Assembly (NCBI GenBank): GCA_964016885.1
Contig: OZ024746.1
Span: 101,556,001-101,620,000 of the forward strand
DNA length: 64,000 nucleotides
From: Eledone cirrhosa
Taxonomy: Eukaryota
Direction: 5' to 3'
In this document: in pieces, positions 42,370-44,145 of the stretch
How the letters are laid out: each line of letters starts with the position of its first letter
Position numbering within the stretch: the stretch's first letter is position 1
The notes under the pieces: model-generated
The model's input: only the letters and a program-made list of their open reading frames with translations
What the model was told of the DNA's origin: nothing
Database searches by the model: none
Program-made: the position numbers and the translations under genes

Positions 42370-42870
42370 TCATCATCATCGATTAATGTCTATCTTCCAT
42401 GCTAGCATAGGTTAGACAGGTTCGATTTAGAGGCAAGTAGTGTCAGGTGACCATGTCTCGCTCAAATAGGGGTGTTTCTGGATGGTTTCTACGGCTGGAT
42501 ACACTTCCTAACACCAACCCCATTTACAGTGTGGGCTGGGTGCTTTTTGCCGTGTCTTTTACACGTCCACTTTACAGTGGGGTGTACAGCTTGTGCTCAT
42601 GGGAAGTCGGGTCTTCTGTATAACTGCATATCACCAGAGATCACAGTCATATGTCACCTCCTCTGAGAGGTGTAATTGGGCAAGGTCGGCTTTTATCACC
42701 TCATCCCAGGACTTCTTGGGTCTCCCCACTCTGCTCTGCACATTTTTATGCAGCTGTCATCCTTCATACACAACACATGTCCATACCAACACAATCTCCA
42801 CTCTTGTATACAGCATTTAATTCCTCTTATGCCTAGTTTCTCTCTCAGTTCATTTATGCTTCGCTGTTCT
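42370..42870 (-). mobile_element. RTE-LINE 3' fragment
   Basis: (cat)n tail, UTR and degenerate RT C-terminus homologous to 26330-26615. Confidence 0.85.
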
Positions 42871-43411
42871 CCATTCTCGGATATATATATATTTTCATAT
42901 TACCCACTCTACTACCCCAAGTATCAAGTACTCTGGTGGGTTATGGTCTAGCTTGTTTTTACCACACCCTATCAGATATATATGTATATAAAATGGAAAA
43001 CAAAGAATCAGTGATGCATCGGAACACAATTTATTACATATTACAATTGTTTCTCCGGTGAACAGCTGGAGGTGTGATCTGTTTGTGGACCAAACCTAAC
43101 TCTGGATTCACAAGAGAATTTGCTTCGAAATCACTAGACGTATCTGAGGAACTTGTGAATCCAGAGTCAGGTTTGATCCACAAACAGATCACACCTCCAG
43201 CTGTTCACCGGAGAAACAATTGTAATATGTAATAAATTGTGTTCCGATGCATCACTGATTCTTTGTTTTCCATTTTATATACATATATATCTGATAGGGT
43301 GTGGTAAAAACAAGCTAGACCATAACCCACCAGAGTACTTGATACTTGGGGTAGTAGAGTGGGTAATATGAAAATATATATATATCCGAGAATGGAGAAC
43401 AGCGAAGCATA
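42855..43411. mobile_element. Large fold-back palindrome (260-bp arms, 37-nt spacer) carrying a hammerhead
   Basis: Arms 42855-43114/43152-43411 are near-perfect and are followed by about 365 bp of (TA)n. Confidence 0.9.
43138..43230 (+). ncRNA. Hammerhead motif, CTGAGGA type
   Basis: acgtat-CTGAGGA-..gtgaat...gttcac..-GAAA-caattg-TA-atatgt. Confidence 0.75.
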
Positions 43412-43412
43412 G

Positions 43413-43778
43413 ATGTATATATATATATATATATATGTATATATATATATATATATATATATATATATATATATATATATATATATATATATATATGTAT
43501 ATATATGTATATATACATATATATATATATGTACATATACATATATATATATATATATATATATATATATATATATACATATATATATATATATATATAT
43601 ATATATATATATATATATATATATATGTATATATATATATGTATATATACATATATATATATATATATATATGTATATATATATATGTATATATACATAT
43701 ATATATATATATATATATATATATATATATATATATATATATATATACATATATATATATATATATATATATATATAT
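43413..43778. repeat. Long (TA)n microsatellite
   Basis: Direct observation. It is the source of the YIYI ORFs. Confidence 0.99.
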
Positions 43779-44145
43779 GAAAAAGTTGGTCCTCATCAGT
43801 GGCCTTTAATGCGACGAAATGCCTACGACGGTTGGAAGGCCACTGATGAGGACAAACTTTTTCATATGTAACTCATTTGCAGCGCCGCAGCTCCATTATT
43901 ATCATATATATATATATATATATATATATACATATATATATACATTTATGCTTCGCCGTTCTCCATTCTCGGATATATATATATTTTCATATTACCCATA
44001 TATATATATATATATATATATATATATATATATATATCAAGTAAGAATATTATAATATATAAAAGGTAAACAGGAATACCAACACAATTGGTACAGTATA
44101 TGGAAGGGATATATTCAGTTAACGCTTGATATAGCAGAAAGAGGG

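What the first reader, a model, noticed from the sequence alone, without database searches (positions are those of the whole stretch)
42855..44000. 260-bp palindrome arms include pre-existing target DNA from other elements
The left arm contains the last ~15 bp of the neighbouring RTE fragment (tatgcttcgctgttc), a tail shared with the unrelated 3901-3970 module, a TA tract, and only then the ribozyme family sequence. All of this is mirrored in the right arm. CTGAGGA sits in the spacer, so only the plus strand has a complete ribozyme. The outer ~55 bp recurs as a direct copy at 43943-44000. Inference: DNA-level fold-back copying ran past the element into flanking DNA, a route to inverted duplication of host sequence.
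Basis: partly seen in the sequence, partly recalled or inferred. Interest (0 to 1): 0.7.

Follow-up and report, generated by a model that had tools for sequence, protein, structure and literature searches.

The report
Ribozyme-retroelement palindrome with mirrored flanking DNA
A 264-base inverted repeat centred on a predicted ribozyme-bearing, likely Penelope-type retroelement remnant also mirrors about 140 bases of older neighbouring transposon debris, likely because DNA copying folded back on the element's hairpin, which would be a small local case of known template switching and not a copy of any gene.

Summary
The palindrome is in the sequence: arms 42851-43114 and 43152-43415, 3 mismatches in 264, 37-nt spacer. 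A predicted type-I hammerhead (43138-43230) is complete only on +. The arms also mirror 133-148 bp that is not this element: the 5'-truncated end of the adjacent LINE, TA runs and the tail of another hammerhead family. The left copy is native, since the LINE runs on through the arm boundary (16-17 of 19 nt in register with three other copies). So the composite is locus-specific, not a consensus element. A third copy (43943-43998) starts at the same base where the right arm ends.

Head-to-head palindromes are routine here: 8 other such loci, none mirroring non-TA flank. Spacer polarity rules out a plain snap-back of a cDNA primed from the left flank. Most likely a head-to-head insertion was later, or during its repair, extended by fold-back template switching, with a second fold-back in (TA)n. 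A palindrome older than the element, copying by the element's own polymerase, and a read artefact are not excluded. Only dead repeats were duplicated. Side result: 7 of the 8 other loci pair a long-tailed with a short-ended arm, favouring two annealed cDNAs.

The parts
42601..42869 (-). 5'-truncated LINE fragment (RT-PHD type; RTE-like label recalled, not tested by a tree); its 3' part continues at about 42347-42582. Its last 19 nt to the right lie inside the left arm, which marks the left arm as native
   Evidence: 67-71% identity over 291-301 nt to three other copies; 17, 16 and 16 of 19 in register for 42851-42869; sister copy carries RVT_1 and PHD; relatives carry PF03372+PF00078+PF00628
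42851..43114 (.). Left arm of the palindrome (native copy of the flank plus inverted element end)
42870..42880 (.). 11 nt of uncertain origin, possibly LINE sequence with a 7-nt duplication
   Evidence: 3 of 11 in register; 10-11 of 16 in a register shifted by 7, post hoc
42881..42891 (.). Short TA run, mirrored exactly and present in the third copy
42892..42975 (+). Isolated long tail of a second hammerhead-type family (shared with 3895-3994), an older insertion that is part of the mirrored flank
   Evidence: 85% over 100 nt to 3895-3994; z 18.4 against shuffles
42976..42998 (.). (AT)4 plus 15 nt of which at least the inner 4 belong to the element's short end; the exact element boundary is uncertain by about 11 nt
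   Evidence: mirrored without mismatch at 43268-43290; alignment with the 29524 copy
42999..43114 (-). Inverted, 5'-truncated copy of the hammerhead element end; lacks the CTGAGGA half of the core
   Evidence: 74% to 29546-29652
43115..43151 (+). 37-nt spacer, in element sense on +, holding CTGAGGA at 43144-43150
   Evidence: aligns with the sequence upstream of the 29530 core
43138..43230 (+). Predicted type-I hammerhead: 6-bp stem I, 62-nt stem II region, palindromic CAATTG helix III, predicted cut after 43224
   Evidence: descriptor hit, 9 such sites in the window versus 1 in 20 shuffles of 53 kb; constrained fold -16.6 versus MFE -17.8 kcal/mol; no Rfam hit
43152..43415 (.). Right arm; 43283-43415 is the inverted copy of the left flank and stops abruptly at a TA tract
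43416..43778 (.). 363-bp interrupted (TA)n tract, likely re-entry point and second fold-back point
43775..43903 (+). Small head-to-head element of a third family (32-nt arms, 29-nt spacer, about 36-nt one-sided tail) sitting in the TA tract; holds CTGATGA but did not fit the hammerhead descriptor
43943..43998 (+). Third copy of the outer 56 bp, direct to the left arm and inverted to the right arm's end, starting at the same base as the right arm ends, flanked by TA on both sides
   Evidence: 55 of 56 identical to 42851-42906; 95.8% over 95 nt inverted to 43360-43454

Best explanation
This is likely a head-to-head remnant of a Penelope-type, predicted-hammerhead retroelement whose hairpin likely triggered a fold-back template switch, so that DNA synthesis copied the left arm and a further 133-148 bp of the native left flank before likely rejoining the (TA)n tract. 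Shown: the 264-nt mirror, its composite make-up, that the left copy is continuous with the neighbouring LINE, that the right copy and the third copy share one end point next to (TA)n, and that the spacer is in element sense on +. Inferred steps: (1) the element inserted at a TA run as two cDNAs primed from opposite strands and joined head to head, as at the other loci of the window; (2) a top-strand 3' end that had just crossed the spacer and about 25 nt of the right arm folded back on the left arm and copied it with strand displacement, overwriting the original right end (no long tail is left) and running through the older tail and TA runs into the LINE; (3) it left the template at 42851 and re-primed on (TA)n by 2-3 nt of microhomology; (4) self-complementary (TA)n folded back once more and gave the 56-bp third copy; (5) the small third-family element inserted into that TA tract afterwards. 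The polymerase is taken to be a host replication or repair enzyme; the sequence cannot show this. The product is most likely without function.
For: LINE continuity across 42851 (17, 16, 16 of 19) fixes the direction of copying. Other copies of the two families have other flanks. Both inner mismatches lie 17 and 25 nt from the spacer and are followed by 235 nt without mismatch; a run that long has P about 0.005 for 3 uniform mismatches in 264 (post hoc), the pattern expected when an imperfect inverted repeat is corrected by fold-back. 7 of 8 other head-to-head loci keep one long-tailed arm; this one has two identical short ends. Right-arm end and third-copy start coincide to the base. Switch-and-return events that create an inverted repeat with or without an inverted spacer are described (PMC5453318, passages), as is snap-back synthesis at breaks, often primed by TA/AT (PMC5728401, passages). 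A second candidate in the window: an 89-bp SINE segment duplicated in inverted orientation at 97.8% around another head-to-head element, with complementary truncations.
Against: No empty site, allele or read was available. The 235-nt test is post hoc and gene conversion would give the same. The palindrome at 3725-3856 also has two short ends without mirrored flank, so short-short ends do not need overwriting. Outer (1 in 148) and inner (2 in 116) mismatch counts do not separate this model from a palindrome that predates the element. PMC5453318 concludes that human short switches are mostly inter-strand, which would give the same product from a single inverted copy, so step (1) is not required. 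The SINE pair may be two independent young copies: distant copies of another family reach 94.8% over 231 nt. No Penelope RT or GIY-YIG frame was found (0 of 61 frames scanned).
Confidence: 0.5

Rival explanations
1. The palindrome is older than the element. A fold-back at a short self-complementary TA run first mirrored about 140 bp of flank, a second TA fold-back made the third copy, and head-to-head elements later inserted into both central TA runs, which are their normal targets.
For: One trigger (TA hairpins) would explain both mirrors. The second mirror (43360-43415 versus 43943-43998) is centred on a TA tract that also holds an element. (AT)4 on both sides could be an 8-bp target duplication; 8-10 bp duplications are reported for rotifer Penelope (PMC3846280). 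Short-short ends occur at 3725-3856.
Against: Needs insertion at the exact centre of a spacer-less 140-bp palindrome that survived until then (instability of such palindromes is recalled, not tested). Does not explain why both element mismatches lie within 25 nt of the spacer. Short-short ends are 1 of 8 elsewhere in the window.
Confidence: 0.2
2. The element's own reverse transcriptase made the mirror during integration: the left-primed cDNA annealed to the right-primed cDNA, copied the spacer, folded back and carried second-strand synthesis through its own primer junction into the target.
For: Same geometry as the best explanation, so all sequence features fit. A Penelope-type protein cuts and extends both target strands in vitro and is predicted to be a dimer (PMC11167929). 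R2-protein insertions show cDNA snap-back onto cDNA or, less often, onto nearby target DNA (PMC11371274, passages).
Against: 0 of 8 other head-to-head loci show it. The one-step version (plain snap-back of the left-primed cDNA) predicts an antisense spacer on +, the opposite of what is seen, unless the spacer was inverted later. The third copy still needs a TA fold-back.
Confidence: 0.17
3. The mirrored flank and third copy are a library, read or assembly artefact (fold-back chimera at a real hairpin next to a long TA tract).
For: A 565-nt hairpin (-313 kcal/mol as single-stranded DNA) beside 363 bp of (TA)n is the kind of place where chimeric reads and misjoins arise (recalled). Complex PLE insertions are noted to trouble assemblies (PMC8557442).
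Against: Right arm and third copy each carry a private substitution and the arms differ at 3 sites. Two returns to the forward strand are needed. The window has no N and six other palindromes show no such extension.
Confidence: 0.08
4. The composite arm is a fixed consensus of a non-autonomous element that inserted as a unit.
For: The pair at 16203-16622 and 46922-47342 shows that whole palindromic units can recur at two loci (91% over 421 nt).
Against: It would have to carry a 19-nt LINE piece that lands in register beside the rest of that LINE. The LINE-end motif occurs only at this locus; the other family copies lack the composite.
Confidence: 0.02

Closest known systems
Inverted (head-to-head) pseudo-LTR structures of endonuclease-bearing Penelope-like elements (PMC3846280; PMC8557442)
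   Same: Head-to-head 5'-truncated copies with a palindrome at the junction, optional one-sided tail, insertion in (TA)n or AT-rich DNA, hammerhead in the repeat.
   Different: No ORF here. The mirror runs 133-148 bp beyond the element into locus-specific DNA, which I did not see described in the parts read. Tails in this window are about 36-100 nt rather than 30-40. Host capture in PMC3846280 is of DNA between pLTRs, with target duplication, not an inverted copy of the flank.
PLE hammerheads (min-HHR and variants; PMC4209133)
   Same: Type-I topology, intact core, short palindromic helix III, high sequence variety between families in one genome.
   Different: Stem II region is 31-80 nt in the 9 descriptor hits (62 nt here) against 6-8 bp helices in the passages read; not detected by Rfam models; cleavage untested.
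Short-range template switching, four-point model and quasi-palindrome correction (PMC5453318)
   Same: Switch-and-return events of order 3-2-1-4 or 3-1-2-4 give an inverted repeat with a native or inverted spacer, as here.
   Different: Described events span tens of bases and a single switch pair; this copy is 240-264 nt, has a likely second fold-back and re-enters at a microsatellite.
Snap-back SD-MMEJ at breaks (PMC5728401) and snap-back 5' junctions of R2-protein insertions (PMC11371274)
   Same: A free 3' end primes on a nearby inverted repeat, copies local DNA and rejoins by microhomology; TA/AT primers are common.
   Different: SD-MMEJ synthesis is described as limited and non-processive; R2 snap-backs are mostly on the cDNA. 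Neither involves a head-to-head hammerhead element.

Membership tests
Penelope-like element (non-autonomous or truncated pLTR) | ORF with telomerase-like RT and GIY-YIG endonuclease | tested here: inconclusive
   0 of 61 frames of 85 aa or more (of 119; satellite and low-complexity frames dropped) hit GIY-YIG; RT hits belong to a LINE and a Ty3-type element. A solo pLTR is not expected to have an ORF, and no linked full-length element is in the window.
Penelope-like element (non-autonomous or truncated pLTR) | Hammerhead motif in the terminal repeat with palindromic helix III | tested here: met
   Descriptor hit 43138-43230; stems I and III change in compensated fashion across 9 sites; 1 hit in 20 shuffles; fold within 1.2 kcal/mol of MFE. 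No Rfam support.
Penelope-like element (non-autonomous or truncated pLTR) | Inverted 5'-truncated copy adjacent at the 5' end (head-to-head) | tested here: met
   42999-43114 versus 43152-43267; 8 further head-to-head loci.
Penelope-like element (non-autonomous or truncated pLTR) | Optional one-sided tail | tested here: inconclusive
   Absent on both arms here; the 29524 copy runs about 90 nt further before its TA run; present on one side at 7 of 8 other head-to-head loci.
Penelope-like element (non-autonomous or truncated pLTR) | Insertion in (TA)n or AT-rich target | tested here: met
   Both ends abut TA runs.
Penelope-like element (non-autonomous or truncated pLTR) | Target-site duplication of 7-12 bp | not testable with these tools
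   Target is TA and the flank is mirrored; no empty site available.
Penelope-like element (non-autonomous or truncated pLTR) | Sequence identity to a catalogued PLE family | tested here: inconclusive
   Six short window motifs found 0 times, and one 8-mer only in passages that did not resemble the element, in the supplement of PMC8557442 (line breaks can hide matches); the supplement of PMC13282606 holds no library.
Naiad clade of PLEs | Lack of a canonical hammerhead; N-terminal endonuclease | tested here: not met
   The focal element fits a full hammerhead descriptor; PMC8557442 reports none in Naiads. The small element at 43775-43903 has only a half core and might be of this kind (untested).
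Short-range template switch (four-point model) | New sequence is a reverse-complement copy of DNA immediately nearby, followed by return to the forward strand | tested here: met
   43283-43415 is the reverse complement of 42851-42983, native by LINE continuity; forward sequence resumes in (TA)n.
Short-range template switch (four-point model) | Comparison with an ancestral (unswitched) allele or ortholog | not testable with these tools
   No animal genome or read collection was open.
MITE / terminal-inverted-repeat DNA transposon | Fixed termini shared by copies at other loci | tested here: not met
   Outer end lies inside a LINE reading frame and recurs only locally.

The most novel reading that the evidence does not exclude
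Penelope-type head-to-head repeats are made by two target-primed cDNAs, one from each of two start sites, that anneal at a natural hairpin of the element (in two loci the ribozyme's own stem II), and the integration complex can then fold back and copy through its primer junction, so these elements actively write inverted copies of their flanks. The window gives testable signatures: long-plus-short arms at 7 of 8 loci, spacers in both polarities in one family, junctions on stem II, and 1 clear plus 1 candidate inverted flank copy among 9 head-to-head loci.
Probability: 0.17. Interest if true: 0.62.

Novelty: new variant of a known kind. Interest (0 to 1): 0.38.

Why it matters
How Penelope-like elements form their tandem and inverted structures is named as open in PMC8557442, and PMC3846280 proposes self-priming. 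A locus where the mirror passes into DNA whose native side can be identified lets one test strand order: here it excludes plain snap-back of the cDNA primed from the native flank. If such events prove common, palindromic elements beside (TA)n would be local hot spots for small inverted duplications, and repeat libraries would pick up false composite consensi. As it stands it is one 140-bp copy of dead repeats, with no gene involved.

Tried and rejected
Rfam at gathering threshold over the window: 0 hits; at E up to 10 over 42800-45200: 55 hits, none a hammerhead, all below gathering score; the three alignments shown are generic hairpin matches. Kinship of the shared tail to the 29524 family tail: not significant (271 and 146 of 1000 shuffles reached the score), so I dropped the idea that it is the focal element's own tail. 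Inverted partner for the copies at 29524, 25272 and 44177: none. Scan of bacterial and archaeal genomes for a 20-nt tail motif: 0 matches, uninformative for an animal. Motif searches in two supplements: no family match. Plain cDNA snap-back: rejected on spacer polarity. 56-bp target-site duplication (left arm start and third copy as a pair): rejected because the third copy stops inside the shared tail and begins exactly where the right arm ends. MITE: rejected. PMC12910113 passages held nothing on this. Ten literature searches turned up no paper describing an inverted flank copy at a PLE junction; the library lacks most subscription papers, including older Penelope structure papers, so this is weak evidence of absence. 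Viral and metagenome contig collections were not searched and stay unchecked; bioRxiv supplements were not seen.

Full report
Setting. The window is repeat-rich animal DNA without N: LINE fragments, SINEs, a Helitron, a Ty3-type element, satellites and many (TA)n tracts. Named relatives of the LINE come from a hydrozoan, a lancelet and a clam. The repeat make-up reminds me of octopus; that is recall and was not confirmed by any search (searches gave no sequence match).

Observation. The inverted repeat has arms 42851-43114 and 43152-43415 with a 37-nt spacer and three mismatches, at 17, 25 and 261 nt from the spacer. From outside in, the left arm is: 19 nt of LINE (42851-42869), 11 nt of uncertain origin, an 11-nt TA run, an 84-nt tail shared with 3895-3994, (AT)4, 15 nt that are partly element end, and 116 nt of the family also found at 29524. 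All is mirrored. A third copy of the outer 56 bp lies at 43943-43998. The two diagnostic motifs each occur three times against none in 100 shuffles.

The ribozyme. Rfam finds no hammerhead. A descriptor I wrote (stem I of 4 bp or more, CUGANGA, 6-100 nt, GAAA, helix III, UH) finds 9 sites in the window against 1 in 20 shuffles of the first 53 kb (shuffled as 2-nt words); stems I and III differ between sites yet stay paired. The focal site is 43138-43230 on +, with a 62-nt stem II region and palindromic helix III; the constrained fold costs 1.2 kcal/mol over the minimum. The descriptor missed four look-alikes (16508, 43843, 44177 and the core-less 3725-3856). Type-I hammerheads with palindromic helix III in terminal repeats are typical of Penelope-like elements (PMC4209133, passages). 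No PLE protein frame was found among 61 of 119 frames scanned, so I call this PLE-like, not a proven member.

Which arm is native. The LINE at 42601-42869 (minus strand, 5'-truncated) aligns with three other copies. With the register fixed by sequence outside the arm, 42851-42869 matches 17, 16 and 16 of 19. So the left arm's outer end is continuous with its neighbour, while the right arm and the third copy both stop at the same base and pass into (TA)n. The other copies of the element (29524) and of the tail (3895-3994) have different flanks.

Comparison with other loci. Besides the focal one there are 8 head-to-head loci: near 3725, 15960, 16300, 43775, 44400, 44740, 47020 and 47820. In the six with perfect palindromes symmetry ends at the element's short end or in TA; the other two show no mirrored flank. 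In 7 of the 8 one arm carries a long tail and the other stops short; the exception (3725-3856) is short on both sides and followed by a tandem copy with the tail. Three further copies (25272, 29524, 44177) have no inverted partner. Head-to-head structure, tails and TA targets are known PLE features (PMC3846280, parts 1-4 of 5 read; PMC8557442, passages). The mirrored flank is what is special here.

Strand logic (inference). A cDNA primed from the native left flank is the top strand and is antisense. If it simply snapped back, the looped-out spacer would be antisense on +. It is sense. A cDNA primed from the right would give the right polarity but would copy the right flank leftwards, against the LINE continuity. 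Hence at least two steps, or a later spacer inversion, which inter-strand switches can cause (PMC5453318, passages). The same logic applies elsewhere: at 47822-47988 the centre is the ribozyme's stem II loop in sense on + while the long tail is on the left, and the pair at 16.3 kb and 47.0 kb has the spacer in opposite polarity relative to the long tail. A single snap-back cannot give a copy longer than its template, whereas two cDNAs primed from opposite strands can. This agrees with in vitro work in which a PLE protein cuts and extends both strands and starts at two sites (PMC11167929, parts 1-2 of 4 read); that paper saw no strand difference in start site, so the long-plus-short pairing is not explained by it.

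Best model (0.5). A head-to-head insertion supplied a hairpin; a nascent top strand folded back after about 25 nt of the right arm, copied the left arm and 133-148 bp of flank, re-primed on (TA)n, folded back once more within (TA)n to make the third copy, and returned. The two inner mismatches followed by 235 perfect bases fit this (P about 0.005 under uniform placement, post hoc); in the other six palindromes the 11 mismatches are spread along the arms. Rivals: palindrome first at a TA centre and element later (0.2); same geometry driven by the element's own polymerase at integration (0.17), for which R2 snap-back onto nearby target DNA is a precedent (PMC11371274, passages); artefact (0.08); fixed composite (0.02). 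The first three all involve DNA-level inverted copying of local flank, so that core claim stands at about 0.87.

Further local duplications. An 89-bp SINE segment is present in inverted orientation at 46822-46910 and 47446-47534, 87 of 89 identical, against 83-90% for the five other pairs among four copies. The left copy has the 3' part but no head, the right copy the head but not that 3' part, and a head-to-head element lies between. This fits one switch with an inverted spacer, but distant copies of another family reach 94.8%, so two independent insertions are possible. A 34-nt direct duplication (88%) brackets the 3725 element.

The duplicated DNA is dead repeat debris of about 140 bp; 0 of 8 other head-to-head loci mirror their flank through the junction; template switching and snap-back repair that create inverted repeats are established (PMC5453318; PMC5728401, passages). 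Ten searches found no description of this exact structure at a PLE, in a library that lacks most subscription papers. PMC13282606 (passages and supplement search) and PMC12910113 (passages) added nothing on it; other listed papers were seen only as search listings.

Verdict. Observation confirmed with small corrections; interpretation partly supported; a new variant of a known kind; interest 0.38, most of it from the strand-order tests that the window's elements allow.

Noticed in passing
window 3725-3856, 15960-16200, 16207-16614, 43775-43903, 44400-44632, 44645-45112, 46930-47334, 47730-47988: Eight other head-to-head hammerhead-type insertions at TA runs; 7 pair a long-tailed arm with a short-ended arm, which favours two cDNAs primed from opposite strands at two start sites over single snap-back.
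   Followed up: partly
window 3776-3805 and 47885-47925: The palindrome centre appears to be the ribozyme's own stem II hairpin, with the CUGANGA half lost.
   Followed up: partly
window 16436-16472 versus 47151-47197: Two copies of one family (91% over 421 nt) have the junction at nearly the same place but the spacer in opposite polarity relative to the long tail; some differences between the loci are mirrored in both arms.
   Followed up: partly
window 46822-46910 and 47446-47534: 89-bp SINE segment in inverted orientation at 97.8% identity around a head-to-head element, with complementary truncations; candidate second template-switch duplication.
   Followed up: partly
window 3654-3687 and 4016-4049: 34-nt direct duplication (88%) of flank on both sides of the 3725-3990 element, plus a similar interrupted TA run at 3681-3715 and 3984-4018.
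   Followed up: no
window 25267-25375, 29523-29616 and other descriptor hits: Hammerhead-like motifs with unusually long stem II regions (31-80 nt) that Rfam does not detect.
   Followed up: partly
window 44030-44200 (minus strand): Compact hammerhead-like motif with short stem II, without inverted partner, directly right of the third copy; did not pass my descriptor.
   Followed up: no
window 19571-23962; 51217-53451; 12848-14490; 25889-28242: Decayed Helitron (Helitron_like_N, PIF1), Ty3-type retroelement (protease, RT, RNase H), a Spin-doc zinc-finger frame probably from a DNA transposon, and a LINE with RT and PHD finger.
   Followed up: no
window 1-566, 30480-35546, 35650-39996, 53900-64000: Tandem arrays (periods about 96, 43 or 86, 21 or 42, and a short unit in the last 10 kb) with strong strand skew.
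   Followed up: no
window 12122-12356 and 42071-42341: Local direct duplications: 123 nt at 96.7% in a LINE 3' end, and 71 nt at 87%.
   Followed up: no
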